A stretch of DNA of 64,000 bases from an uncultured Campylobacterales bacterium (lineage in GTDB: Bacteria; Campylobacterota; Campylobacteria; Campylobacterales; QNZT01): positions 13,802-77,801 of the forward strand of contig CAYUEN010000004.1 in NCBI GenBank assembly GCA_964443745.1. The letters run 5' to 3'. Positions 48,374 to 64,000 of the stretch are shown one piece after another. How positions within the stretch are numbered: position 1 is the first letter of the stretch; each line of letters starts with the position of its first letter. A program made the position numbers and the translations under genes. The notes beneath the pieces were generated by a model that was not told where the DNA came from, made no database searches, and was given only the letters and a program-made list of their open reading frames with translations.

Positions 48374-50746
48374 CTAACGCCTCTTTCTTCTTCGAAACCA
48401 CCAGTAGGCGATCGCGATGCCCGCCAGCAAACCGCCCAGCACCTGTACCCATGCGCTTATCAGGAGGCTTTTGTTCAAGATCGTTCGGTGCGTCTTGTTG
48501 TCGATCGTCACGCCCGCAACTTCGGCGGTATGGACCATCAACGATACGGCCAGATCTTCGTCGGGTATCTCCTTGTGGCAGCTTAGACAGACGCCCCGTC
48601 GGTCGACTCTGGCGCGGGTTTGGTTGTCGAGTGCGCGCGAGAGTCGCCAGTGGTTGCCGACCGTTTGGAGTTGGGTACCGTTTTCGTCGACGAAACGGGA
48701 GTAGTCGTCTTTTAGGTTGGGGATGGCGGGAATCTGCTCGTCGACGTTTTTGGGGAGGATTTTCCGATCGGCGCTCATCAAATCGACGATCGTCGTTCGG
48801 GTTTGGTCGGCGAAATACGTTCCGCCCCCGATGCCGTAACCGAGCGCTTTGGCGCTGGCGTGGCAGCTCTCGCAACTGCGTCCCTTTTTGGTGATCGTGT
48901 GGGGGTTGACAGGTGACATGACGATCGAATTGACTCCCTCCTCCCCGTGGCCTTCGACGTTGGGAATCTTGAAGATATGGTTTTGCAGCAGCGCCTTTCC
49001 GCTTTTGCCGATGACGGTGAGGGTCACCTGGCATCCGGGGATGACCGGCGAGACGCGCCCTTCGCCGTTTTGGGCCAGCGGAGGATCCTCCCACCTCAGA
49101 TAAGAGCGGGTTTCGGTCACCTTGCCGTCGACTAGAAACGATTTGAGGTTGTCGACTTCGCCGGTGATGCCGTGACGGTGGCTTTTGGAAGCGGCGAGAT
49201 AGTCCGGATTACGTTTGCCGCCGGAGTAGTCGATTTTGACATGACAGCCGTAACACTGCGGAGCCCATGCGGCATGACAGGTATAGCATTCGAGTCTATC
49301 GGTATGCGCTTTGATCCGATCCATCGCCACGAGCCCTTCGCGGGAGAGTTTGCCCTCCTTTTTGAGTCCTTTGAGCGGCGTAAGCGTAAGATCCCTGCCC
49401 GAAGCCAGATGCATCACCACTTTGTTTCCCTTACGGACGGCGTGCGGCATCGGATTGCCTCTGGCGCTCAGCAAAAATCCGTCGCCGCGATCTTTGGGGA
49501 CATATCCTTTTTCGAGATATTCAGCAAGTGTCCGGACCGTACCGCGCGGGGCGCCTTTTGCCGGTGTAGTGGCGAATTCATCGCCGTATCCGAGCGGAAG
49601 CTCCCACGGATATCTGTCGGTCGTACCATGACAATCCTGACATTCGATCTCCACCGCTCCCAGATTGGCACCCGTGATGAAGCCGTCGCCGTGGAGGTCG
49701 TTGGAGGTGTGGCAATCCTGACAGAGCATCCCTTTGGTGTAGTGGATGTCCTCCTGAAGATGGAGATAGCGTTTTGTGTGGAGTTTGGGCTGGGGATTGC
49801 CCGCATCGTCGAAAGTCGCCTTATATTCGGTCTCCATAAGTCCCTGGTAGGAGACGCCGATTCGCTTGCCGCGATTGTGACAGGTGGTACAAGTTTCGAC
49901 CGGTATACCGGAGTAGCAGACGCCATGAATCGAGACGTTTACGTCGCGTGAAGACTGGATCGCATGGACGAGAAGATGACCCGGCTCCTTTTTGGGGATC
50001 GTGGGATCGCCCCCTTCGTAGAAGCCTTCGTTGGAGTAGGGGATATGGCAGGAGGAGCAGCCGATACCCCGGAAGTCTCCCCGTCTGTATCTGCCTTTGC
50101 CGCCGGTGTGACAGCGCAGACACTCCTGGCGCAGGTAGGTATAGACGGAGAGTGTCGGATCCTTCTCCACCTCTTCGGCCGTCGGTGCGGGCGGGAGTTC
50201 GATCTGCTTCTTCAAAAATGCCTGCGGCTCCTTTTTGGACAGACCTTTCATATAGTTTTCGTAGGTGTCGGTACCGAGGCGTTTGTGGATATTTTCGACA
50301 CCGAAGTTGGCGTAGGTGTGGTTGTAACCCTCCTTGGCTCCGAATCCCCAGATCGCCCCGTGTATCTTTCCGCTTTCGGTCGCCATCAGGTTGTTCCACT
50401 GTGCGCTTACCTGCTCCTTGTGGCAGATGCCGCAGGTGTTTTCGTTGATCCACGGACTTCCGGGTGCGGGATAGAAGGCTTTGGGGCCCTTGTGGTCGAG
50501 AAAATAGGGAAGGGTGCCGCTATGGGCGTCGCTTTTCTCCTTCGCTTCGGGGTTTCCGCCGTGACAAACGATACAGTCGTTGCCTTTCGCCCCCGCTTTT
50601 TCGGCGATGCGATAGATCTCCCGCATCATCTTCGAATGGGGATCCCGGATCTGTTCGATCCCTTTGTGGCATGCCATACAGCCGTTGGCTCCATGGAGCG
50701 AAAGCGTCACCAGAAAAATCGAAACGAAAAACGAAAATATACGCAC
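48374..50746 (-). CDS. Dodecahaem c-type cytochrome with C-terminal membrane anchor
   Basis: 12 CxxCH motifs by my count (CMACH, CIVCH, CGICH, CLRCH, CSSCH, CTTCH, CQDCH x2, CYTCH, CYGCH, CESCH, CLSCH). C-terminal TM LLISAWVQVLGGLLAGIAIAYWWF plus RRRKRR. Start re-called at GTG 50746 after AAGGAGG; the track ORF starts at 50782. Confidence 0.85.
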   Translation of the reverse strand: MRIFSFFVSIFLVTLSLHGANGCMACHKGIEQIRDPHSKMMREIYRIAEKAGAKGNDCIVCHGGNPEAKEKSDAHSGTLPYFLDHKGPKAFYPAPGSPWINENTCGICHKEQVSAQWNNLMATESGKIHGAIWGFGAKEGYNHTYANFGVENIHKRLGTDTYENYMKGLSKKEPQAFLKKQIELPPAPTAEEVEKDPTLSVYTYLRQECLRCHTGGKGRYRRGDFRGIGCSSCHIPYSNEGFYEGGDPTIPKKEPGHLLVHAIQSSRDVNVSIHGVCYSGIPVETCTTCHNRGKRIGVSYQGLMETEYKATFDDAGNPQPKLHTKRYLHLQEDIHYTKGMLCQDCHTSNDLHGDGFITGANLGAVEIECQDCHGTTDRYPWELPLGYGDEFATTPAKGAPRGTVRTLAEYLEKGYVPKDRGDGFLLSARGNPMPHAVRKGNKVVMHLASGRDLTLTPLKGLKKEGKLSREGLVAMDRIKAHTDRLECYTCHAAWAPQCYGCHVKIDYSGGKRNPDYLAASKSHRHGITGEVDNLKSFLVDGKVTETRSYLRWEDPPLAQNGEGRVSPVIPGCQVTLTVIGKSGKALLQNHIFKIPNVEGHGEEGVNSIVMSPVNPHTITKKGRSCESCHASAKALGYGIGGGTYFADQTRTTIVDLMSADRKILPKNVDEQIPAIPNLKDDYSRFVDENGTQLQTVGNHWRLSRALDNQTRARVDRRGVCLSCHKEIPDEDLAVSLMVHTAEVAGVTIDNKTHRTILNKSLLISAWVQVLGGLLAGIAIAYWWFRRRKRR

Positions 50747-50892
50747 CGCCCCTCCTTTTGATATCTGCGGATATACTACCACAATTTTACCAATCTCTCA
50801 TATCGCGCCCTTTTCATCCTGCTGAAGCACACCCGTTGCGTATGACAAGGTAAAGAAGCATATCTACCCCTCTCCTTTTTTTGAGAGGATTC

Positions 50893-55323: not shown

Positions 55324-55733
55324 AACGAAATATTCTTCCGCTTCTGCTGGCGGGGCTGCTGGCCGGCTGCGGCCCCAAACCCGTCACCCGTATTTACGAC
55401 GAGAGCCGTGTAGGCAAGATCGAATGTCTGAAGCTGCGCGTCGTTCCGCCGGATTCGAAGCTGGAGCGTTTCATGCAAAAACGCTACCCTTTTGAGACCT
55501 CATGCAAAACGGTACTCGAAATCACCACCAAATGCGGCATCGTCTGCAACAGCAACCAAAACGCTCCGCGCAAGAATCTCTCCGCCTTTCCGGACAGCTA
55601 CCTGCGGATGGAGGTGCGAGAATCCCTCCGTCTTCTCTACAGCTATTATGTCGATTTGCAGGGAGAAGTCGACGAAAAAGCGCTCGAAAGGGGATGGGAA
55701 AGGCTTAGGAGGGATTTGAAACTCACCCCATAA
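55320..55733 (+). CDS. Hypothetical lipoprotein
   Basis: ATGA overlap with the upstream gene. Lipobox LLAGC. Confidence 0.5.
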   Translation: MKRNILPLLLAGLLAGCGPKPVTRIYDESRVGKIECLKLRVVPPDSKLERFMQKRYPFETSCKTVLEITTKCGIVCNSNQNAPRKNLSAFPDSYLRMEVRESLRLLYSYYVDLQGEVDEKALERGWERLRRDLKLTP

Positions 55734-57114
55734 ACCCCAGATCCGTCCCGCTGAACGCACCGATGTTCGGAAAGATTTTCAGCAATTCCGGTTCACTTGC
55801 GCCGAACCACCGCAAAACGGTGGCCAGATACTGTTCCATCGAGGTGGTGGGGATCATCCTGTCTTCCCACGCATCGGGAGAGTCGGGTCTGAGTTCGGGC
55901 ATTTTGCCGTAGATATCGCCTCCTTTTACCGCCCCGCCCATTACGAAGGCATGACTTCCCCATCCATGATCGGTTCCGGCGCTATTGGATGTGAGCGAAC
56001 GTCCGAAATCGGAGAGGGTGAGTGTCGTGACCTGGTTTTGGAGTCCGAGCTTTTCGAGAGCGTCGGCGAATGCGCCCAGAGAGTCGCTCAGGTATCCAAC
56101 CTGATGGGCATTGTCGCTGTCATGCGTATCCCATCCGTGATGGTTTACGAAAAAGATCTGTCTTTTGGGAGTGCCCGGAAACCTTTCCCTGACCGAGAGG
56201 ATCTGCGCGACCAGTTCCAGCTGCCTGCCCAGTGCCCGGCCCGTCTCGTGCACCCCGCCGCCGAAGCCGTCGAAAGTGACGACGTTGTCGAAGAGGCCGG
56301 AGAGTTTTTCGGGTAGATCGAGTTTTTCGACATGTCGGGTCGCGAAAGCGGCCATCAGCTTGTTGGGGTCTTTACGTTTTTGTTCGTAGAGCTTTTGATA
56401 CACACCTCCCAAATCGCCGCCTCCCGCGTCGGGTCCGAATCCGTAGCTTTTCATCGTATCCGATGGGATCGAAGCGTCGTCGAAGTAGAGCGCGTCCGCC
56501 TTTCCCCCGTACTGGAGTGTATTGGCGTAACTGTCCGCCACCGAGATGTTGAAGTAGGGATTGGGTGTGTCGTAGAAGGTATCGGCGACTCGTGCCGCCC
56601 ATCCGGTGTGGGAGCTTCCCGTCGCATCGCCCATCAGCCACATCGCACGTTGGGTGTTGTGGGCGAAGAGTTCGAAAGGTATCGGCGCCCCCTCCTTGAT
56701 ATCCGAAAGGCTCACGGGACGAATCAGCGTACCGACGTTGGCGACGACCGCGAGCTTTTTTTGTCCGAAAAGCTCCTGCATCCGCCTCATGTTCTCACGC
56801 ATTCCGTATCGGAGCGGATTGAGTCCGTTCGTGTTGGCGTGGGTGAGCGGAAGCAGACTCTCCCTGGAGAGGGCGATGTTCGATCGTGTTCTGCGGTAGG
56901 CGTCGTAGGGGTCGGCTTCACTGGGTGCGATCATGTTGAAGACGTCCGCCCCTCCCTCCAGCAAAATGCAGACGATCGCTCTGTATTCGCCCGCGGTTTG
57001 TGCCGCTTCGAGGCGCGTGAACGAGCCGAGCAAGCCCATCAGGGGCGACACTCCCGCCGTGGCGGCGAGGGCATATCGGAGGAACTCTCTGCGTGTATAT
57101 GTTTTTTTTCTCAT
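55723..57114 (-). CDS. DUF1501-family Tat-exported protein, copy 2
   Basis: TRREFLRYALAATAG twin-arginine leader, LEGGADVFNMI, HGWDTHD, TDHGWGSH. SD AAGGAG right after the upstream stop. Confidence 0.8.
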   Translation of the reverse strand: MRKKTYTRREFLRYALAATAGVSPLMGLLGSFTRLEAAQTAGEYRAIVCILLEGGADVFNMIAPSEADPYDAYRRTRSNIALSRESLLPLTHANTNGLNPLRYGMRENMRRMQELFGQKKLAVVANVGTLIRPVSLSDIKEGAPIPFELFAHNTQRAMWLMGDATGSSHTGWAARVADTFYDTPNPYFNISVADSYANTLQYGGKADALYFDDASIPSDTMKSYGFGPDAGGGDLGGVYQKLYEQKRKDPNKLMAAFATRHVEKLDLPEKLSGLFDNVVTFDGFGGGVHETGRALGRQLELVAQILSVRERFPGTPKRQIFFVNHHGWDTHDSDNAHQVGYLSDSLGAFADALEKLGLQNQVTTLTLSDFGRSLTSNSAGTDHGWGSHAFVMGGAVKGGDIYGKMPELRPDSPDAWEDRMIPTTSMEQYLATVLRWFGASEPELLKIFPNIGAFSGTDLGFMG

Positions 57115-57125
57115 CTTGATCTCCT

Positions 57126-58880
57126 TTATCGCTGAAGGGCGTAATCGGGTGAGGTCATGACCAGACCGACGGCGTGGCGGGCCAATTTCTTTGCATCGAG
57201 GCGCTTATGGGAGCGCAGATAGTTTTTGATCTCTTTAAGGCTGGATTCGCTGAGATTTCCGGCGCACAACAGCGTGTTCAGATGCGAAAGCAGTCCGTCG
57301 AAATCACCCGATTCGATCAGCTTTTTCTCCTTCTTCAGGTCGAGTTCGGCTGAAATCTCAAACAGATCGTAGATCGAATCGACCTTGTTGATGAGCCCCA
57401 TCAAAACCTCGTCGATACCCTCTTTGCCGTAGAGGGTGAGTTCGGGAGCGACGAGATTTTGTTTTTTGAGGGTGTAGGGGGCGTCTTCCGGCGTGAAGTA
57501 GTTGAAGACCGTAAGTGCCTCCAGCGCTCCCTCCTGGCGGGTGTAGCCGGTGCCGTTGAAGTTGAAGGAGCGATATCGATACAGAGGCGTATCTCCTTCC
57601 TTGAGGGTATGGATGCCGTTTTTGGCGTCGAATGCGCGAAAGAGGTGGGTAAAATAAAGAAGCGGTTCGCGGAACTTGCCGAAGGTTGGTTCGGATCGTA
57701 CGCCTTTTGCGCCTTTAAGCGCCTCTTGATCCAGCAAAATCGCCTTGATTACCGCCTTCAGGTCGCCGCGGACCCCTTTGCCGTTGTCGGCGAAAGCTTC
57801 GGCGACCCTTTTGACGTAGGCGGGAGAGGGGTTGGAGGTGACCAGGCGCTGAATCAGCTGTCTGGCGATGAACGGGCCGGTATTGGGATGGGTGAAAAGC
57901 AGATGCAGGGCCTCTTGGATCTCTTTTTTGGTGGTGTTTCCGGCGTGAAAGGTGTGGTTGAGTACCACCTTCTCTCCCGTGTCGTGATAGGTTTCGACCG
58001 CTATCATAGGGGTGGTTCGAGAGCGGTGGGAAGTCCCCCCTTCGTCGGGAAAGAAGTAACCGTTGTCGTCCGTAAGCCCCGTAAAGATACGCGCCATTTC
58101 GCGAACGTCTTTTTGGGTGTAGGTGGCGATGGGATGGCCGTTTTTCAATTTTTTCGTACCGTCCTCGTTGAGTTGGTAGAGTCCGATCGTAAAGAGCTGC
58201 ATCACCTCTCTGGCGTAGTTTTCATCCGGATGGCTTCCCGTGGTCGGGTCTGCCTTGGCGTTTCCCAGATAGCTCAGATAGCGCCCCATGGCCGGATGGA
58301 AAGTGACCTCTTTCAGCAGCGTTTCGAAATTTCCGAAGGCGTTTTCAAGCAAGACATCGTAGTAGGAAAGCCGTGCGTCGGGGAAGGTGAGCAGCGGACC
58401 GTTTCGGGAGATGACGAGGATTTCGCTCAGGGCGAAGGCGACCCGCTGGCGCAGCTGATCCTCGCCGTGTACCGCAATCTCCATCCAAGCGTCGCGTTCC
58501 ATAACTCCGATCGCATCGGCATGAACGCGCCACTCTGCGGGATGGTCGCGAAGTTTTCCGGTGTTGTTGACTTCCTCGGCATGATCGGCCATCCACCGCA
58601 TATGATAGGTGGGAGGTTTTTCGAACTGCTCCTCTAGCCATTTTTCGTAGCCGACTTTCATGAGATGGTCGATCGCATCCGGTGTCGTGCCGAAAGTGGC
58701 CCGAGAAAGAAAGGCGGAAGCTTCGTTTGGGGTGAGGTTGGAGGGAAGATTGTTCGGAGGATTGCCCCCCGCTTTGGTTCCGTTGTCCTGAATGGAGGCC
58801 GGCTCCGTAGCGCCGCCGCATCCGGAAAACGACCAGACGATGCCCGCTGTCAGAAGTATGGCGAAGATTCGAGGCTTCAT
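57126..58880 (-). CDS. DUF1800-family lipoprotein, copy 2
   Basis: Start ATG 58880 (MKPRIFAILLTAGIVWSFSGC lipobox). SAFLSRATFGTT and ENYAREVMQLFTIG. The track ORF starts at 58919. Confidence 0.78.
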   Translation of the reverse strand: MKPRIFAILLTAGIVWSFSGCGGATEPASIQDNGTKAGGNPPNNLPSNLTPNEASAFLSRATFGTTPDAIDHLMKVGYEKWLEEQFEKPPTYHMRWMADHAEEVNNTGKLRDHPAEWRVHADAIGVMERDAWMEIAVHGEDQLRQRVAFALSEILVISRNGPLLTFPDARLSYYDVLLENAFGNFETLLKEVTFHPAMGRYLSYLGNAKADPTTGSHPDENYAREVMQLFTIGLYQLNEDGTKKLKNGHPIATYTQKDVREMARIFTGLTDDNGYFFPDEGGTSHRSRTTPMIAVETYHDTGEKVVLNHTFHAGNTTKKEIQEALHLLFTHPNTGPFIARQLIQRLVTSNPSPAYVKRVAEAFADNGKGVRGDLKAVIKAILLDQEALKGAKGVRSEPTFGKFREPLLYFTHLFRAFDAKNGIHTLKEGDTPLYRYRSFNFNGTGYTRQEGALEALTVFNYFTPEDAPYTLKKQNLVAPELTLYGKEGIDEVLMGLINKVDSIYDLFEISAELDLKKEKKLIESGDFDGLLSHLNTLLCAGNLSESSLKEIKNYLRSHKRLDAKKLARHAVGLVMTSPDYALQR

Positions 58881-58980
58881 GAAAATCCTTTTTTTCGCCA
58901 TTATAGTATAAAAATACAATTAATTTCAATAAATATATTAAAAATTTAATAATTTGATAAAAAATATGGAAAAAACCGCG

Positions 58981-59421
58981 TTAAAACGCTTCAATTCTCT
59001 CCAGAAAGGGGAGTTGGGATTCGACGATCACCTCTTTCGCTTTTTCGAGAGGAAACCATGCCGCTTTGTCGATCTCCGGGAAACGGAGGATTTTTCCCGA
59101 TTTGGGCGGCCACTCCATTTCGAACGTATTGGAGCGGACTTTGGTGGAGGGTTGGGCTTCGACGGCCCAGACGTGGATGGTTTTGTTCGCCGTCTTGACG
59201 CTGCCCAGGGATGCGAACTTCCCTTCGATGCGAATCCCCGTCTCTTCGTAAAATTCGCGTTTCGCCGCCTGAAGAGGCGTTTCGTCCGCTTTTATTTCGC
59301 CTTTGATGACACTCCATGATCTGCGTCTCTTTTTCCAGAAGGGTCCGCCCATATGTCCCAGATAGACTTCGACTTCTCCGTTTTTGCGTCTGAAAGGGAG
59401 GATTCCCGCACTCTTTTTCAT
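58981..59421 (-). CDS. NUDIX hydrolase
   Basis: Nudix box GEIKADETPLQAAKREFYEETG. Start ATG 59421 after GGGAGAA; the track ORF starts at 59454. Confidence 0.8.
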   Translation of the reverse strand: MKKSAGILPFRRKNGEVEVYLGHMGGPFWKKRRRSWSVIKGEIKADETPLQAAKREFYEETGIRIEGKFASLGSVKTANKTIHVWAVEAQPSTKVRSNTFEMEWPPKSGKILRFPEIDKAAWFPLEKAKEVIVESQLPFLERIEAF

Positions 59422-59500
59422 ATCGTTCTCCCGCATCTTCGTATGCTTTACCATATTCGATTCCCCCTTATGCTATCATGAGAGGAGGAAAGGAGAGGCC

Positions 59501-60154
59501 ATGGCGCGGTTGAGACAGGAAGATTCGAAGGTGGAGGTAAGAGGCTGGGAAGCCCGCCACTACGATATGTTGATGAACGTGATCACGCTGGGATGGTATC
59601 CGAGATTCATCCGAAGAGCGATCGGCGACCTGGGGCTCGAAGAGGGGGATCGTATCCTCGATCTGGGTGCGGGAACGGGGCGAAACGCGCTGTTGATGCG
59701 GGAGTATATCGGTGAGAGTGGCGAGATCGTGGGGCTGGAGATCGGTCCGGAGATGCAGGCGCAGTTTTTGCAAAAAAGCATCCCTTTCGACAATATCCGT
59801 CTAGAAAACCTCCGTATCGACGAACCCCTTCCCTACAAAGAGCGGTTCGATCTGGTCTTTATCTCCTTCGTGCTGCACGGTTTTGTCCCCCAAAAGCGGG
59901 AGCGTATCGTCCAAAACGCCTACGATGCGCTCAAACCCGGCGGAATCTTCGCGATTCTCGACTACAACACGTTCGAAGTGGACGAAGCGCCGTGGTATAT
60001 CCGTTTCGCGATTCGGAAAGTGGAGTGTCCTCTGGCCGAAAATTTCATCGAACAGGATCTTAAAGGTATGCTTGCCGAAAGGGGGTTTGGAGCCTTTACG
60101 CAGAAAACCTACTTCAAAAACCATATTCGGCTTCTCAGAGCGAAAAAATCTTGA
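59501..60154 (+). CDS. Class I SAM-dependent methyltransferase
   Basis: Start ATG 59501 (MARLRQ). Motif I ILDLGAGTGRNA and post-I/II LVFISFVLHG. Confidence 0.8.
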   Translation: MARLRQEDSKVEVRGWEARHYDMLMNVITLGWYPRFIRRAIGDLGLEEGDRILDLGAGTGRNALLMREYIGESGEIVGLEIGPEMQAQFLQKSIPFDNIRLENLRIDEPLPYKERFDLVFISFVLHGFVPQKRERIVQNAYDALKPGGIFAILDYNTFEVDEAPWYIRFAIRKVECPLAENFIEQDLKGMLAERGFGAFTQKTYFKNHIRLLRAKKS

Positions 60155-60168
60155 AAAAAGGGTGAGAG

Positions 60169-63100
60169 ATGATGGAAACGGTCGAAATCTCCCGGATTCT
60201 TTTCGATCTCTCGCTGATTTTTTTCCTCACCTTCGCTTTGGGGGCGTTGTTGGCCCGCGTGCGTATTCCGGTGATTCTCTCCGCTCTCTTCGTGGGGATG
60301 GGGTTGCGTTATCTGCCTCTTTTCGAACACATCTTACAAACTCCCCGCCTCGCGGAGATCTTCGATTTCCTCTCCAATCTCGGGGTTCTCTTTCTGCTGC
60401 TTTATATCGGATTGCAGATCGAGATGAAAAAGATGATGCAATCAAGCAGAGATATCGTCTGGCTGACGGTTTTGAACACACTTTTCCCTTTCGTACTGGG
60501 AATGGCGGTGATGTTCGCGTTCGGATACGGTCCTGTGATCGCTTTCGTGATCGGTATGACACGGATGCCCACGGCCGAGGCGGTGATCGTACCGATACTG
60601 GACGAATTCAAGATGATCAAAAGCCGTATCGGTACCTTCATTATCGGTGCCGGTGTTCTGGACGATGTGATCGAAGTCTTTTTGGTGGGATTCGTCTCCG
60701 TCTGGATCGGCGTGCGTGCGGGTGCGGGAGAGGGCGGAATGGTGGTGTTGTTCTTCGGTATCCTCTCTTTCGTTATCTTCTCCTATATCTTCTACGCCTA
60801 TTTTGCCAGGATCGTCCACCGCTTCATCCCCAAATCGACGAGCAATCTGCTGATTTTTTCCCTCATGATTCTCTTCGTTTTCGGAGGATTCAGCGAAAAG
60901 ACCGAAATCGGTATGGTCGTGGGGGCGATCACGGCGGGGGTGGTGTTGCGCCCGATTCTGGAAAAAGCCGGCAAAAACGGCGCCTTCGTTTCCAAGACGA
61001 TTTCGACCGTCAGTTACGGCTTTTTCGGAATCATCTTTTTCTTCTGGATCGGATTCAATATCGATCTGGGCGGCCTGCTCGAAGAGCCGATATTGGCGAT
61101 CGCCCTCTATCTGGCGGGTACGATAGGCAAACTTTTGGGTGTCTTTTTGATGGTGCCTATGAAACGGCTTTCTTTCAAAGAGGCGCTTACGATAGGGGTG
61201 GGACTGGATGCGAGGCTGACGACCGAGATCATCGTCGCGCAGTTGCTTTTCTTCTCACATATTATCGATTCGACGCTTTTTACCGCGCTGGTCGCCGCCT
61301 CCTCCTTTACGGCACTTACGGTACCGCTGATTTTCACACTGCTGGTGCGCCACTACGGAAAATCCCTCGAAGGCGGCGGTACAAAGCCCCTTTCGGCTCC
61401 GAAAAAGAGGCTCTATCCATGGCATGCAAAACCGTTGAAAGAGATTCTCTCGCGTCTGGATACCGATCCCCAAAAAGGCCTGGATGCATCTAAAGTGCGC
61501 GAAAGAGCCGCCTATTTCGGTCCCAACGAATTGCAAAAGATCAAAAAGACACCATGGTATCTAATTTTGTTGCGGCAGTTTACCGACGTCTTGATTCTGA
61601 TTCTTTTCGCGGCGGCGATCGTTTCGCTCGCATTGGGAGAGACGGCTGATGCGATCACGATCTTCGTCATCATCCTTCTCAACGCTCTGCTCGGTTTCGT
61701 CCAGGAGTACAAGGCCGATACCGAAATCTACAAACTCCAGCAGATGCTTTCGCCCGAGTGCAAAGTGATCCGAGACGGCAAAGAACGGATCGTCGACGCC
61801 AAATCGCTGGTGCCCGGAGATATCGTCGTGTTGGAGATCGGTGATCGTGTTCCGGCGGATCTAAGGCTGATCGAAGCGCAAAATCTCAAGGTGGACGAAT
61901 CGTCGCTGACGGGAGAGTCTTTGCCCGTTCACAAAGATCTCGAACCGGTCGCGCCGGATACCCCGCTGGCGCAAAGAAGCGATATGGTGTGGATGGGAAC
62001 GACCGTCGTCAACGGATTGGCGAGGGGTGTCGTCGTCCGTACGGGGATGGAGACGGAGTTCGGAGAGATCGCGAGACTCACCCAGACGGTGGAGCACAAA
62101 CCCACACCTTTGCAGAAAAAGCTGGCGCGACTCGGAAAAAGATTGGGGATCTATTCGGTTTCGATCGCCGTATCGGTCGCGCTGATCGGCTGGATGACGG
62201 GCAAGGGGTTGATGGAGATGTTCTTGACCGGCGTTTCGCTGGCGGTGGCGGTCGTGCCGGAGGGGTTGCCGGCGGTCGTGACGATCACGCTGGCGCTGGG
62301 AATCCGTGCGATGGTCAAGCAAAAGGCGCTGCTCAGACGTCTGCAGGCGGCCGAGACGCTGGGGAGTGCGACGGTGCTTTGTTCGGACAAAACCGGAACG
62401 ATCACCCAAAACGAGATGACGGTCAAAAAGATCTGGCTTCCCTCCGGTATGCTCGACGTGACCGGTATCGGATACGATCCCGCCGGCCACTTCGAAAAAG
62501 AGGGAAAACGGTTCGATTACGAAAACGCGCCCGATTTGCGTCTTCTTCTTAAGACGGGATTGGTGTGCAACCATGCGAAAGTGACAAAAGAAGGAGACGA
62601 ATGGAAAATCATCGGAGAGCCGACGGAAGCTTCGCTCATCGTCGCGGCCTACAAGGCGTGGATGAGTCCCGAACCCCGCCGTGTCGTTACCGAATTTTCC
62701 TTCAACTCCATTCGAAAACGGATGAGCGTCGTCGTTGAGGAAAACGCGCACCTGCGTGCCTATGTCAAAGGGGCGCCCGAAGTGATTCTGGAGCGATCGC
62801 GGTGGTTGCTCGATTCGGGAAAGGTGCGAGAAATCGACGATAAAAGCCGTGAACGAATTATGACGCAATACAAAAAGATGGCATCCGAAGGGCTTCGCAC
62901 GTTGGCACTCGCCTATCGCGATCTGCCGGCCGATACGCCTATGCGGGAGGAAGCGGTGGAAAAAGAGTTGGTCTTTTTGGGTATCGTCGGTATTATCGAT
63001 CCTCCCCATGAAGAGGCCGCCGAATCGATCGCGATGGCGAAAGAGGCGGGTGTCAAGGTGATCATGATCACTGGTGATAGTCCCGAGACGGCACTCGCGA

Positions 63101-64000
63101 TCGCCGAAAAAGTGGGATTGGAGACGGAACAAGCCTACACCTCCGAAGATATCGCCCGGATGGATGACGAAACGCTTGAAAAGGTGTTGAACCGAAAGGT
63201 CCTTTTCGCCAGAGCCCGTCCCGAGGACAAACTCAGAATCGTAAAAAACCTCCAGAGGATGCACCATATCGTGGGGATGACCGGAGACGGAGTCAACGAC
63301 GCGCCCGCCCTCAAACAGGCCGATATCGGTATCGCGATGGGCAAAAAAGGGACCGACGTCGCCAAGGCCGCCGCCGATATGGTACTGCTTGACGACAACT
63401 TCGCCACGATAATTCGCGCACTCAGAGAGGGTCGCCGTCAATACGACAACGTCAAAAAATTCGTCACCTATCTGCTTTCGTCCAATACCGGCGAGGTGAT
63501 CGCGATTTTTATGAACATCATCCTCGGAGGCCCGCTGATTCTGTTGCCGGTGCAGATTTTGTGGATGAATCTGGTCACCGACGGGATGACGGCCGTGGCG
63601 CTCGGCGTGGAGCCGGCCGAAAAAGGAATCATGAAACGTCCTCCCAGATCGCTGGAAGAGCCTATAGTGGGAAGATGGGAGATCGGAATGATCGCCGTGT
63701 TGGGTGCCTATATCGGCATCGCGACGCTCTGGCTGCATCATCACTATCTCGCATCCGGTCAACCCGATGGCGAAATTCTCGCCCAGACGGTCGCATTCAC
63801 CGGTATCATCGTATTGGAGAAGATGAATGTCTTCAACTATCGCTCCTTTTCGGGCCCGATCGTGAAGACGACGGGATTTTTCTCCAACGGATGGATTCTG
63901 GTGGCGATCGTCACGACTCTGGGATTGCAGGCGTGCGCCCTCTATCTGCCGTTTTTGCAAAAAGCGCTCCATACGGTACCGCTTGGCTGGAGCGAGTGGG
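60169..64000 (+). CDS. Fusion protein: N-terminal CPA-type cation/proton antiporter domain plus P-type cation-transporting ATPase (3' end beyond the window)
   Basis: By hand translation the frame is open from ATG 60169 to the window end, consistent with its absence from the stop-bounded track. About 395 aa are antiporter-like TM helices, then WHAKPLKEIL..., TGES, PEGLPAVVT, CSDKTGTITQN, TGDSPETA and GDGVNDAPALKQADIG. Confidence 0.8.
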   Translation, partial: MMETVEISRILFDLSLIFFLTFALGALLARVRIPVILSALFVGMGLRYLPLFEHILQTPRLAEIFDFLSNLGVLFLLLYIGLQIEMKKMMQSSRDIVWLTVLNTLFPFVLGMAVMFAFGYGPVIAFVIGMTRMPTAEAVIVPILDEFKMIKSRIGTFIIGAGVLDDVIEVFLVGFVSVWIGVRAGAGEGGMVVLFFGILSFVIFSYIFYAYFARIVHRFIPKSTSNLLIFSLMILFVFGGFSEKTEIGMVVGAITAGVVLRPILEKAGKNGAFVSKTISTVSYGFFGIIFFFWIGFNIDLGGLLEEPILAIALYLAGTIGKLLGVFLMVPMKRLSFKEALTIGVGLDARLTTEIIVAQLLFFSHIIDSTLFTALVAASSFTALTVPLIFTLLVRHYGKSLEGGGTKPLSAPKKRLYPWHAKPLKEILSRLDTDPQKGLDASKVRERAAYFGPNELQKIKKTPWYLILLRQFTDVLILILFAAAIVSLALGETADAITIFVIILLNALLGFVQEYKADTEIYKLQQMLSPECKVIRDGKERIVDAKSLVPGDIVVLEIGDRVPADLRLIEAQNLKVDESSLTGESLPVHKDLEPVAPDTPLAQRSDMVWMGTTVVNGLARGVVVRTGMETEFGEIARLTQTVEHKPTPLQKKLARLGKRLGIYSVSIAVSVALIGWMTGKGLMEMFLTGVSLAVAVVPEGLPAVVTITLALGIRAMVKQKALLRRLQAAETLGSATVLCSDKTGTITQNEMTVKKIWLPSGMLDVTGIGYDPAGHFEKEGKRFDYENAPDLRLLLKTGLVCNHAKVTKEGDEWKIIGEPTEASLIVAAYKAWMSPEPRRVVTEFSFNSIRKRMSVVVEENAHLRAYVKGAPEVILERSRWLLDSGKVREIDDKSRERIMTQYKKMASEGLRTLALAYRDLPADTPMREEAVEKELVFLGIVGIIDPPHEEAAESIAMAKEAGVKVIMITGDSPETALAIAEKVGLETEQAYTSEDIARMDDETLEKVLNRKVLFARARPEDKLRIVKNLQRMHHIVGMTGDGVNDAPALKQADIGIAMGKKGTDVAKAAADMVLLDDNFATIIRALREGRRQYDNVKKFVTYLLSSNTGEVIAIFMNIILGGPLILLPVQILWMNLVTDGMTAVALGVEPAEKGIMKRPPRSLEEPIVGRWEIGMIAVLGAYIGIATLWLHHHYLASGQPDGEILAQTVAFTGIIVLEKMNVFNYRSFSGPIVKTTGFFSNGWILVAIVTTLGLQACALYLPFLQKALHTVPLGWSEW

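What the first reader, a model, noticed from the sequence alone, without database searches (positions are those of the whole stretch)
60169..64000. Unterminated ORF of more than 1270 codons fuses a CPA-type cation/proton antiporter in frame to a P-type (PEGL/DKTGT) ATPase
The six-frame track lists no plus-strand ORF in this frame between 60169 and 64000, as expected if the frame never meets a stop inside the window. Hand translation starts at ATG 60169, which has a GGGTGAG SD-like motif just upstream and lies 14 nt after the methyltransferase stop. It gives about 395 aa of polytopic Na+/H+-exchanger-like sequence (MMETVEISRILFDLSLIFFLTFALGALLARVRIPVILSALFVGMGL ... FTALTVPLIFTLLVRHYG), then a short polar linker (KSLEGGGTKPLSAPKKRLYP). 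With no stop and no SD-preceded ATG/GTG, it then runs into the canonical N-terminus of a type-II P-type ATPase (WHAKPLKEILSRLDTDPQKGLDASKVRERAAYFGPNEL, TGES, PEGLPAVVT, CSDKTGTITQN, TGDSPETA, GDGVNDAPALKQADIG). This puts a secondary antiporter and a primary pump in one polypeptide, which implies obligatory coupling or mutual regulation of the two fluxes. I do not know a characterised example of this architecture.
Basis: partly seen in the sequence, partly recalled or inferred. Interest (0 to 1): 0.72.

Follow-up and report, generated by a model that had tools for sequence, protein, structure and literature searches.

The report
Antiporter fused to calcium-type pump
One real 1305-residue gene joins a NapA-like cation/proton antiporter to a SERCA-like P-type pump; it is the fused form of an uncharacterised antiporter-plus-pump gene pair that many bacterial phyla keep side by side.

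Summary
Window 60169-64000 (+) is open for 1277 codons. The full gene is 1305 aa and ends 89 nt beyond the window. Two independent metagenome assemblies cover the junction without any indel.

The N-terminal ~398 aa form a 13-helix NapA-like CPA2 antiporter (AF2 pLDDT 89; TM-score 0.79 to NapA). Its DD motif and TM10 lysine are invariant. The remainder is a complete P2A ATPase with every SERCA site-I and site-II ligand invariant.

The fusion is not a one-off. At least 73 protein clusters in vent Campylobacterota share it, including complete genomes of Nitratifractor, Hydrogenimonas, Nitratiruptor and Sulfurimonas. They are annotated only as "P-type ATPase".

The new result is that the fusion is the covalent form of a conserved gene pair. 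In 63 of 69 evaluable species loci from several other lineages as well (Desulfobacterota-type groups, Gammaproteobacteria, Nitrospirae, Planctomycetota, among others), this CPA subfamily is fused to the orthologous ATPase, overlaps it stop-to-start, or is separated from it only by a Usp gene. Fused and split states interleave on the tree, and the two modules co-diverge (r = 0.87).

Most likely the two form a stoichiometric complex of two active transporters. The ions and the logic of the coupling are inferred, not shown. Seven literature searches found no description.

The parts
60160..60166 (+). Shine-Dalgarno-like GGGTGAG, 5 nt upstream of ATG 60172 and 2 nt upstream of ATG 60169
   Evidence: Sequence read. 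The public gene call P0001 starts at the second ATG.
60172..64000 (+). Fusion gene for the CPA2-P2A ATPase. It is 1305 aa in full, and the last 29 codons plus the stop lie 89 nt beyond the window. An alternative start is ATG 60169.
   Evidence: No stop in 1277 codons. Full length comes from the window's own contig, L083 8001-11918. Independent assemblies agree.
60169..61359 (+). CPA2 (NapA-like) antiporter module with 13 TM helices, aa 1-397
   Evidence: Pfam PF00999, 2e-42. TIGR00932 CPA2. NapA 4bwz at 1e-13 by sequence. AF2 pLDDT 89 and pTM 0.84. Foldseek TM-score 0.79/0.82 to NapA.
60568..60579 (+). P-T-A-E in the unwound stretch of broken helix TM4. It is invariant in the fusion family, and P, A and E are invariant across the whole CPA subfamily.
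60661..60666 (+). DD motif in TM5 (D165/D166 in window numbering), aligned with NapA D156/D157. Invariant.
61129..61131 (+). TM10 lysine (K321), aligned with NapA K305. Invariant.
61213..61227 (+). R-L-T-T-E in the unwound stretch of broken helix TM11. The R aligns with NapA R331. Invariant in the fusion family.
61360..61419 (+). Interdomain linker KSLEGGGTKPLSAPKKRLYP. In the family it is polar, hypervariable in sequence and length, and predicted disordered.
   Evidence: Linker alignment of 73 proteins. pLDDT below 50 at 402-411.
61420..64000 (+). P2A-type (SERCA/PMR1-like) P-type ATPase module, complete except for M10 and the tail, which lie beyond the window
   Evidence: Pfam. TIGR01522 761 bits and TIGR01116 675 bits. 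PDB: SPCA1 1e-181, LMCA1 1e-166, SERCA 1e-145.
61909..61920 (+). TGES dephosphorylation motif of the A domain. Invariant.
62257..62271 (+). PEGLP in M4. The glutamate corresponds to SERCA E309, a site-II and gating residue. Invariant.
62386..62400 (+). DKTGT, containing the phosphorylated aspartate. Invariant.
63283..63300 (+). GDGVND hinge motif of the P domain. Invariant.
63484..63495 (+). M5 N-T-G-E. The N and E align with SERCA1 N768 and E771 (site I). SPCA1 lacks both.
   Evidence: Direct alignment to SERCA1. SPCA1 alignment. Invariant.
63568..63582 (+). M6 N-L-V-T-D, aligning with SERCA1 N796, T799 and D800 (sites I and II)
   Evidence: Invariant.
63817..63819 (+). M8 glutamate at the position of SERCA E908 (site I)
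   Evidence: It aligns with the SPCA1 M8 Asp. The equivalence to E908 rests on established knowledge and was not aligned directly here. Invariant.

Best explanation
The gene encodes one 1305-residue membrane protein. A complete 13-helix NapA-like CPA2 cation/proton antiporter is tethered by a flexible ~20-residue cytoplasmic linker to the N-terminus of a complete SERCA-like P2A ATPase. It is the covalent version of a conserved two-gene unit, CPA followed by the ATPase, sometimes with a Usp regulator between them. In Campylobacterota an MgtC/DUF4010 membrane protein follows the ATPase. Most lineages express the unit as translationally coupled separate genes.

Shown: the fusion is real; both modules keep every catalytic and ion-binding residue under strong purifying selection; the pair is linked in 91% of evaluable species loci; the two modules co-diverge; fusion and fission have happened repeatedly.

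Inferred: the two proteins assemble 1:1 in the membrane, probably as a dimer of heteromers because CPA antiporters dimerise. Both modules transport. The ATPase uses ATP to expel a divalent cation from the cytoplasm in exchange for protons, most likely Ca2+, two per cycle given that both SERCA sites are intact, and possibly Mn2+. The CPA module exchanges a monovalent cation (Na+ or K+) for protons, driven by the proton-motive force, and is NapA-like and electrogenic given DD plus Lys. Tethering secures equal stoichiometry and proximity, so that cation extrusion and the proton and charge movements it causes are handled locally and regulated together, by Usp where it is present. The linker itself transmits no force.
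For: Real fusion: no stop; independent assemblies show no indel; 73 clusters of 1299-1331 aa at 56-86% identity and 98-100% coverage, including complete genomes.

Active CPA: best sequence and fold match is NapA; confident 13-helix model with the two broken, crossing helices; D164/D165, K320, PTAE and RLTTE are invariant in 73 proteins, and D, D, K and E are invariant across the wider subfamily.

Active ATPase: TGES, DKTGT, KGAPE, TGD and GDGVND are invariant, as are E(M4), N/E(M5), N/T/D(M6) and E(M8). M5-M6 aligns residue for residue with SERCA1 N768, E771, N796, T799 and D800.

Conserved pair: of 80 species loci, 16 are fused, 26 adjacent or overlapping and 21 CPA-Usp-ATPase, so 63 of 69 evaluable loci are linked. 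The partner ATPase is always 58-68% identical to the window's module, against about 43% for generic P2A ATPases. Stop and start overlap by 4-11 nt with SD-like motifs. Pairwise identities of the two modules correlate at r = 0.87, Mantel p = 0.001.

Flexible tether: the linker is hypervariable in length and sequence and scores below pLDDT 50. Fused and split states interleave on the ATPase tree.

Topology: the 13-TM NapA fold puts the C-terminus in the cytoplasm (established for NapA), as the ATPase N-terminus requires.
Against: No experiment exists. Ion specificities are read from conserved residues only. The CPA subfamily carries two extra invariant glutamates, in PTAE and RLTTE, that are absent from NapA and could change its substrate. 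AlphaFold gave no confident arrangement between the modules (pTM 0.46), although that construct lacked M8-M10. Some genomes have the CPA without an adjacent ATPase (L008, L052, L063, L076; L017 and L075 have CPA-MgtC), and a 57%-identical ATPase stands alone (P0077), so neither module strictly needs the other. In the usual direction both modules would import protons, so the physiological logic of pairing them is not obvious. No riboswitch or other ion-specific regulator was found to pin down the ion.
Confidence: 0.55

Rival explanations
1. Neutral or convenience fusion of two independently working, merely co-regulated transporters. They share an operon because they answer the same stress (salt, alkalinity, divalent cations). 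Loss of the overlapping stop fused them, with no physical or functional interaction beyond co-expression.
For: The fused or split state is labile. The linker is hypervariable and disordered. AlphaFold predicts no interface. The CPA occurs without an adjacent ATPase and the ATPase without a CPA. An overlapping stop and start makes accidental fusion easy.
Against: Linkage holds in 63 of 69 evaluable loci across several phyla, in fixed gene order. Stop-start overlap, which is typical of subunits made in equal amounts, recurs in different sequence forms. The modules co-diverge tightly (r = 0.87). Fused forms persist across whole genera, with both modules under strong constraint.
Confidence: 0.2
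2. A Kdp-like or ArsAB-like hybrid pump in which the two modules form one coupled machine. Either ions pass between the CPA site and the ATPase site, or the ATPase cycle drives or gates the CPA elevator. The result would be an ATP-energised antiporter or a pump with a new ion-entry subunit.
For: There are precedents for P-type or other ATPases teamed with a channel-like or carrier-like subunit: KdpA-KdpB and ArsA-ArsB (established knowledge). Here the pairing is tight, the genes are translationally coupled and the modules co-diverge. The CPA subfamily has extra invariant carboxylates in both unwound helices, which could adapt it to a divalent ion shared with the pump.
Against: The ATPase keeps all ten-helix P2A features and both complete SERCA-type sites including the M4 gating glutamate, so its own pathway looks intact. 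The CPA keeps the full self-sufficient antiporter signature. Standalone members of both partners exist. AlphaFold predicts no interface (inconclusive).
Confidence: 0.13
3. The CPA module no longer transports. It serves as a sensor, a dimerisation scaffold or a membrane-targeting domain that regulates the ATPase.
For: Transporter-like sensor domains are known in other systems (established knowledge). CPA dimerisation would dimerise the pump.
Against: All transport-critical residues (DD, TM10 Lys, both unwound motifs) are invariant in 73 fusion proteins and in standalone relatives. The fold is a complete, confident NapA-like antiporter. Standalone members of about 400 aa, with no partner domain, look like ordinary antiporters.
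Confidence: 0.08
4. Assembly or sequencing artefact: a missed stop or frameshift has joined two separate genes.
For: Some close relatives really are split at exactly this point. One MAG locus, L070, looks like a frameshifted copy of a fused gene.
Against: Two independent runs from different studies assemble the junction without an indel. Dozens of independent genomes, including finished ones, carry the same fusion. There is no in-frame SD-preceded start after the linker.
Confidence: 0.01

Closest known systems
NapA, the Thermus thermophilus Na+/H+ antiporter (CPA2; PDB 4bwz, 5bz2)
   Same: It is the best sequence and fold match to the N-terminal module (1e-13; TM-score 0.79/0.82). It shares the 13 TM helices, the two broken crossing helices, the DD motif in TM5, the Lys in TM10 and the Arg in TM11.
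   Different: Identity is only about 23%. The window's subfamily has an invariant Glu two residues after the TM4 Thr (PTAE), and its TM11 acidic residue is shifted by two positions (RLTTE against NapA PRGEV). NapA stands alone, whereas this module is fused or genetically coupled to a P-type ATPase.
SERCA1a, SPCA1/PMR1 and Listeria LMCA1 (P2A Ca2+-ATPases)
   Same: The domain set and catalytic motifs are complete. The overall best PDB hit is SPCA1 (1e-181), followed by LMCA1. The M5-M6 ion-site segment is closest to SERCA1, with N768, E771, N796, T799 and D800 all identical.
   Different: Scores fall just under the NCBIfam equivalog cut-offs for the PMR1 type (761 against 798 bits) and the SERCA type (675 against 703 bits). 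Unlike SPCA1, it keeps the site-I residues. None of these pumps has an N-terminal transporter domain or a dedicated antiporter partner.
KdpFABC (the P1A ATPase KdpB with the channel-like subunit KdpA)
   Same: A P-type ATPase is genetically and physically teamed with a member of a different transporter superfamily, encoded by adjacent genes (established knowledge). It is the nearest precedent for a pump combined with another type of transport protein.
   Different: In Kdp the partner comes from the K+ channel superfamily and the ion passes from KdpA into KdpB. Here the partner is an elevator-type antiporter, the ATPase is a P2A type with its own complete sites, and no shared ion path has been shown.
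ArsAB (the ArsB carrier with the ArsA ATPase)
   Same: A secondary carrier that can work alone is teamed with an ATPase, giving two ways of energising transport (established knowledge).
   Different: ArsA is a soluble ATPase with no membrane pathway. Here the ATPase is itself a full membrane pump.
Usp-associated CPA2 and P-type transporters, such as plant CHX C-terminal Usp-like domains, the KdpD Usp domain and Rv1996-ctpF in M. tuberculosis
   Same: A Usp gene sits between the CPA and the ATPase in 21 loci. Some related ATPases carry a fused Usp domain (P0086, P0091, P0102). The standalone relative P0077 is preceded by a tandem Usp.
   Different: The window's fused gene has no Usp. In Campylobacterota an MgtC/DUF4010 gene follows instead. 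The comparison systems are cited from general knowledge and were not tested here.

Membership tests
CPA2 cation/proton antiporters (NapA/KefC/NHA2 type; Pfam PF00999, TIGR00932) | Significant match to the family profile over its full length | tested here: met
   PF00999 at 2e-42, model positions 4-372 of 375. TIGR00932 CPA2 at 6e-26, which is below its subfamily cut-off of 238 bits.
CPA2 cation/proton antiporters (NapA/KefC/NHA2 type; Pfam PF00999, TIGR00932) | NhaA fold: 12-13 TM helices with two discontinuous helices (TM4 and TM11) crossing in the core domain | tested here: met
   The AF2 model (pLDDT 89) has 13 helices, broken at 122-131/137-146 and 336-345/351-362. Foldseek gives NapA at TM-score 0.79/0.82, then KefC, NHA2 and PaNhaP.
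CPA2 cation/proton antiporters (NapA/KefC/NHA2 type; Pfam PF00999, TIGR00932) | Ion-binding DD motif in TM5 and a salt-bridging Lys in TM10, the signature of the electrogenic CPA2 type | tested here: met
   D165/D166 align with NapA D156/D157 and K321 aligns with NapA K305. All are invariant.
CPA2 cation/proton antiporters (NapA/KefC/NHA2 type; Pfam PF00999, TIGR00932) | Measured cation/H+ exchange, ion selectivity and stoichiometry | not testable with these tools
   This needs proteoliposome or everted-vesicle assays.
P2A-type P-type ATPases (SERCA/PMR1/LMCA1) | All P-type catalytic motifs: DKTGT, TGES, KGAPE, TGD, GDGxND | tested here: met
   All are present at verified coordinates and invariant in 73 proteins.
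P2A-type P-type ATPases (SERCA/PMR1/LMCA1) | Best profile and structure matches fall within P2A | tested here: met
   TIGR01522 at 761 bits and TIGR01116 at 675 bits are the top hits, both slightly under the equivalog cut-offs. PDB gives SPCA1, LMCA1 and SERCA at 1e-181 to 1e-145.
P2A-type P-type ATPases (SERCA/PMR1/LMCA1) | Ca2+ site ligands: E309 (M4); N768 and E771 (M5); N796, T799 and D800 (M6); E908 (M8) | tested here: met
   M5 and M6 align directly to SERCA1. M4 PEGLP and the M8 Glu are placed through the SPCA1 alignment. All are invariant. The E908 equivalence is by homology and was not aligned directly.
P2A-type P-type ATPases (SERCA/PMR1/LMCA1) | Ca2+-dependent ATPase activity and Ca2+ transport | not testable with these tools
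   This needs biochemical assay.
KdpFABC-like hybrid pumps | A P-type ATPase encoded next to, and co-assembled with, a subunit from another transporter superfamily | tested here: inconclusive
   Genetic linkage and translational coupling are shown. Co-assembly is not testable here, and AlphaFold pTM of 0.46 on a truncated construct is uninformative.
KdpFABC-like hybrid pumps | Ion translocation path shared between the two subunits | not testable with these tools
   This needs a structure of the whole fusion or complex.
KdpFABC-like hybrid pumps | Homology to KdpA or KdpB | tested here: not met
   KdpB models score only 1e-31 to 1e-28, far below the P2A models. The partner has a CPA fold, not a KdpA/SKT fold.

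The most novel reading that the evidence does not exclude
The CPA and the P2A ATPase work as one integrated machine, a new class of hybrid primary/secondary cation transporter. In this reading the ATP-driven cycle of the pump gates or energises the elevator antiporter, or the antiporter, with its two extra invariant glutamates, handles the same divalent ion as the pump. That would be a bacterial single-unit counterpart of the eukaryotic NCX-plus-PMCA pairing, or a second Kdp-like solution that evolved independently.
Probability: 0.15. Interest if true: 0.85.

Novelty: new variant of a known kind. Interest (0 to 1): 0.62.

Why it matters
P-type pumps and CPA antiporters are two of the best-studied transporter families, yet I found no description of a dedicated partnership between them. 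This analysis shows that a specific CPA2 subfamily and a specific SERCA-like P2A subfamily are kept together across many bacterial lineages and have fused repeatedly in hydrothermal-vent Campylobacterota. By the Rosetta-stone argument, that predicts a physical and functional complex of a primary pump and a secondary antiporter.

If the prediction holds, it gives a tractable bacterial model for how ATP-driven cation export is coordinated with proton and monovalent-cation fluxes. It also gives a natural single-chain construct for cryo-EM, and it points to a function for hundreds of genes now labelled only "HAD-IC family P-type ATPase" or "cation:proton antiporter". Cultured hosts with complete genomes exist (Nitratifractor salsuginis, Hydrogenimonas spp., Nitratiruptor tergarcus, Nitrosophilus alvini), so the question can be tested directly.

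Tried and rejected
- **Assembly artefact:** rejected, because two independent assemblies show no indel and 73 homologous fusions exist.
- **Separate translation of the ATPase from an internal start:** rejected for this gene. No in-frame ATG lies between aa 2 and aa 526, and the GTG and TTG near the junction have no SD.
- **Riboswitch clue to the ion:** Rfam gathering-threshold scans of 22 loci (about 289 kb) found only one tRNA.
- **Conserved neighbours that might reveal the ion:** all-against-all clustering of flanking ORFs found only Usp (30 loci) and, by tblastn, MgtC/DUF4010 (Campylobacterota only). Nothing else is shared by more than 6 loci. The upstream methyltransferase is not conserved.
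- **AlphaFold model of both modules together:** the tool's 1200-residue limit forced truncation of M8-M10. The result (pLDDT 70, pTM 0.46) is uninformative about an interface.
- **Crude hydropathy count of TM helices:** too noisy to use. It was replaced by the AF2 secondary structure.
- **Literature:** seven full-text searches with different term sets found no paper on a CPA-P-type ATPase fusion or operon. One further search failed on a syntax error.
- **Other fusions of this CPA with an ATPase elsewhere in protein space:** the exhaustive search of 1.84 billion representatives found only one fused 50%-identity cluster, the window's own. All other top-150 hits are standalone CPAs of about 400 aa or fragments.

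Full report
**1. Observation**

Translating window 60169-64000 on the + strand gives 1277 codons without a stop.

Pfam places these domains:

| Domain | Residues | Note |
|---|---|---|
| Na_H_Exchanger | 22-392 | 2e-42, almost the whole model |
| Cation_ATPase_N | 418-486 | |
| E1-E2_ATPase | 526-717 | |
| HAD hydrolase | 738-1052 | |
| Cation_ATPase_C | 1122-1277 | cut by the window end |

The window's own contig (L083; a 111.6-kb contig of assembly GCA_054029515.1) shows that the gene is 1305 aa long. It starts at the second ATG (window 60172) and ends 89 nt beyond the window. The GGGTGAG motif at 60160-60166 lies 5 nt from that ATG and only 2 nt from ATG 60169, so 60172 is the more likely start.

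The junction does not come from a single assembly. A contig from run X1, a hydrothermal-vent metagenome, covers 61017-61900 with no difference. A contig from X2, from a different study, covers 60900-61900 with two substitutions and no gap.

Near the junction there is no in-frame ATG, and the in-frame GTG (aa 393) and TTG (aa 423) have no Shine-Dalgarno motif.

**2. The two modules**

*N-terminal module.* By sequence, the ~398 N-terminal residues match the Thermus Na+/H+ antiporter NapA best among solved structures (1e-13), then KefC. NCBIfam places the module in CPA2.

An AlphaFold model built on 18 subfamily sequences is confident (pLDDT 89, pTM 0.84). It has 13 helices, two of them broken, at 122-131/137-146 and 336-345/351-362. 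These are the crossing discontinuous helices of the NhaA fold. Foldseek returns outward-facing NapA first (TM-score 0.79/0.82), then KefC, NHA2 and PaNhaP.

In the NapA alignment:
- D165/D166 match NapA D156/D157.
- K321 matches K305.
- R349 matches R331.

NapA's 13-helix topology puts the C-terminus in the cytoplasm. This is established knowledge for NapA, and it is what the N-terminus of a P-type ATPase needs.

*C-terminal module.* This is a complete P2A ATPase. The top NCBIfam hits are the PMR1-type and SERCA-type Ca2+-ATPases, both just under their equivalog cut-offs. The top PDB hits are SPCA1 (1e-181), Listeria LMCA1 (1e-166) and SERCA (1e-145).

When only M5-M8 is searched, SERCA1 is clearly the closest (1e-29, against 1e-17 for LMCA1 and 1e-14 for SPCA1). 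SERCA1 N768, E771, N796, T799 and D800 align with identical residues. SPCA1 lacks the two M5 ligands. The module therefore carries both SERCA-type sites.

**3. Conservation of the fusion**

A search of 5.8 billion clustered proteins returned 73 clusters of 1299-1331 aa that cover 98-100% of the query at 56-86% identity. All carry PF00999 together with the P-type domains. They include complete genomes of Nitratifractor salsuginis, three Hydrogenimonas species, Nitratiruptor tergarcus, Nitrosophilus alvini and a Sulfurimonas. The sources name them only "HAD-IC family P-type ATPase" or "Ca2+-transporting ATPase".

In an alignment of the 73 proteins, these residues are invariant (P0001 numbering, which is window numbering minus 1):
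- CPA module: PTAE 133-136, D164/D165, K320, RLTTE 348-352.
- ATPase module: TGES, PEGLP, DKTGT, KGAPE, TGD, GDGVND, N1105/E1108, N1133/T1136/D1137, E1216.

The linker between the last CPA helix and the conserved W-H/Y-A/T that opens the ATPase varies in length and has essentially no conserved sequence, yet it is in frame in every case.

Both modules are therefore under strong purifying selection, while the tether is free to vary.

**4. The fusion is one form of a widespread gene pair**

An exhaustive HMMER search of 1.84 billion representatives with the CPA module alone found the fusion family as a single 50%-identity cluster. All other top hits were standalone CPAs of about 400 aa at 34-56% identity that share the same signature motifs.

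A scan of one genome per species (GTDB) with a profile of this subfamily found 246 relatives. The best 80 were fetched with flanks. I classified them by tblastn and ORF tracing:

| Architecture | Loci |
|---|---|
| Fused | 16 |
| CPA directly followed by the ATPase | 26 |
| CPA-Usp-ATPase | 21 |
| CPA-Usp, then contig end | 1 |
| CPA-MgtC, no ATPase | 2 |
| CPA with no ATPase in the flank | 4 |
| Not evaluable (contig ends) | 10 |

So 63 of 69 evaluable loci are linked. The partner ATPase is always 58-68% identical to the window's module, whereas unrelated P2A ATPases reach about 43%.

Besides Campylobacterota, the linked loci come from records labelled:
- Thermodesulfobacteriota, Desulfobacterales, Desulfuromonas and Geobacteraceae
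- Gammaproteobacteria (Thiohalobacter, Chromatiales)
- Nitrospirae
- Methylomirabilis
- Caldilineaceae
- Hydrogenothermaceae
- Acidimicrobiia
- Desulfurellales
- the planctomycete Stieleria marina

In the directly adjacent forms, the CPA stop and the ATPase start overlap or abut (ATGA, TGATG, or ATG...TGA with 4-11 nt overlap), and an SD-like motif lies upstream. That motif is often encoded by the conserved W-G-K-E codons of the CPA tail. This is the classic arrangement for translational coupling.

The intervening gene in the three-gene form is a universal stress protein (PF00582, 4e-18 to 5e-25).

In Campylobacterota an MgtC/DUF4010 membrane-protein gene follows the ATPase or fusion. In the window's contig it overlaps the fusion gene by 37 nt.

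**5. Evolution**

A neighbour-joining tree of 54 ATPase modules, rooted on the standalone relative P0077, places all lineages outside Campylobacterota as split. Within the clade of Campylobacterota plus Hydrogenothermaceae and Desulfurellales, fused and split forms interleave:
- Split L003 is sister to fused L005.
- A split Sulfurovum/Sulfurimonas clade sits beside the fused group that contains the window.
- Split Desulfurellales loci sit inside a fused clade.

That implies at least three changes of state. The tree has no support values, and one "split" locus (L070) may be a frameshift error.

Pairwise identities of the CPA and ATPase modules across 51 loci correlate at r = 0.87 (Mantel p = 0.001), so the two have been inherited as a unit.

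**6. Mechanism**

*Shown:*
- The gene encodes a single polypeptide.
- Both modules are intact.
- Linkage is conserved and the split genes are translationally coupled.
- The tether is flexible and the covalent join is dispensable.

*Inferred:*
- The two proteins form a stoichiometric membrane complex.
- Both modules transport.
- From its site residues, the pump most likely exports Ca2+ (possibly Mn2+) with proton counter-transport, as SERCA-type pumps do.
- From DD plus Lys, the CPA most likely runs NapA-like monovalent cation/H+ antiport.

A hypervariable, disordered linker of about 20-35 residues, together with repeated fission, argues that the tether carries no mechanical signal. Selection appears to act on equal dosage and proximity.

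Why a proton-importing pump should be paired with a proton-importing antiporter is not explained by anything I could compute. Joint control of cation extrusion, local pH and charge under salt, alkaline or metal stress is plausible, and it fits the Usp regulator and the vent and sediment habitats. It is still a guess.

Two subfamily-specific invariant glutamates, in PTAE and RLTTE, differ from NapA and leave the CPA's substrate open.

The AlphaFold model of residues 1-1200 gave pTM 0.46. Because M8-M10 had to be cut, this neither supports nor excludes an interface.

**7. Rivals**

- **Convenience fusion of merely co-regulated genes (0.20).** It fits the lability of the state and the existence of unpaired relatives. 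It does not account for the breadth of the linkage, the stop-start overlap or the co-divergence.
- **Kdp-like or ArsAB-like integrated machine (0.13).** This is the most interesting possibility. It is not excluded, but both modules look self-sufficient.
- **Non-transporting regulatory CPA (0.08).** It is contradicted by the invariant transport residues.
- **Artefact (0.01).** It is excluded for practical purposes.

**8. Comparison with what is known, and novelty**

Each module is an ordinary member of a well-known family (see the membership table). The combination is what is new.

I found no description of it in seven full-text searches. Among the PDB matches returned for the CPA model and for the ATPase module, I saw none that combines the two.

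The proteins themselves have been in public databases for years, annotated as plain P-type ATPases. The fusion is therefore "known" to databases but uncharacterised.

I rate it a new variant of a known kind. Interest is moderately high because the conserved pairing makes a clear, testable prediction and cultured hosts exist.

Noticed in passing
L083 11882-13177, which begins at window coordinate ~64053, just beyond the window end: A 431-aa MgtC + DUF4010 membrane-protein gene overlaps the 3' end of the fusion gene by 37 nt. The same gene follows the ATPase or fusion in 16 related Campylobacterota loci, and it follows the CPA directly, with no ATPase, in L017, L075 and L004. The MgtC family is classically co-transcribed with the Mg2+ P-type ATPase MgtB.
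   Followed up: partly
L023-L027, L030-L032, L037, L039-L041, L043, L047, L048, L055, L056, L059, L060, L073, L081 (for example L023 7237-7656): A conserved universal stress protein of about 135-150 aa lies between the CPA and ATPase genes in lineages outside Campylobacterota. Related ATPases P0086, P0091 and P0102 carry a fused Usp domain, and the standalone relative P0077 is preceded by a tandem Usp.
   Followed up: partly
L032 7696-10269 and 10677-12296: In one Thermodesulfobacteriota locus, a second and more distant P-type ATPase (36% identity) lies between the Usp and the orthologous ATPase (57% identity).
   Followed up: no
L002 772-782 (Logan contig of SRR30181637): This is a split relative in which the CPA ORF ends ...WGKEVCDAK-TAG. 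It overlaps by 11 nt an SD-preceded ATG that starts the ATPase (MQNSLSWHTQ). Its linker is much shorter than in its fused relatives.
   Followed up: yes
window 61861-63972 (-) and 59883-61493 (+): Two long ORFs, of 703 aa antisense and 536 aa in another frame, overlap the fusion gene. They have no support as genes and look like by-products of codon bias in this ~55% GC region.
   Followed up: no
window 48374-50782 (-): An 802-aa multihaem cytochrome matches MtrC/MtrF domains II/IV and the cytochrome c3, c7 and c554 families. This looks like an outer-membrane-type electron conduit in a vent campylobacterotal genome.
   Followed up: no
window 55723-57114 (-) and 57126-58919 (-): An adjacent DUF1501/DUF1800 gene pair lies upstream on the opposite strand. 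Its function is unknown.
   Followed up: no
L083 16701-19462 (about 5 kb downstream of the fusion gene, outside the window): TrkA and TrkH K+-uptake genes lie nearby. This is another cation-homeostasis system in the neighbourhood, though it is not conserved next to the pair in other loci.
   Followed up: no
P0136 (570 aa): The first 166 residues are 61% identical to the CPA module up to the DD motif. The sequence then switches abruptly to a ketosynthase-like sequence, so this is probably a chimeric contig.
   Followed up: no
window 59384-60154 (+): A SAM-dependent methyltransferase (UbiE/COQ5-like) ends 14-17 nt before the start of the fusion gene, so the two are probably co-transcribed here. 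This neighbour is not conserved in related loci.
   Followed up: partly
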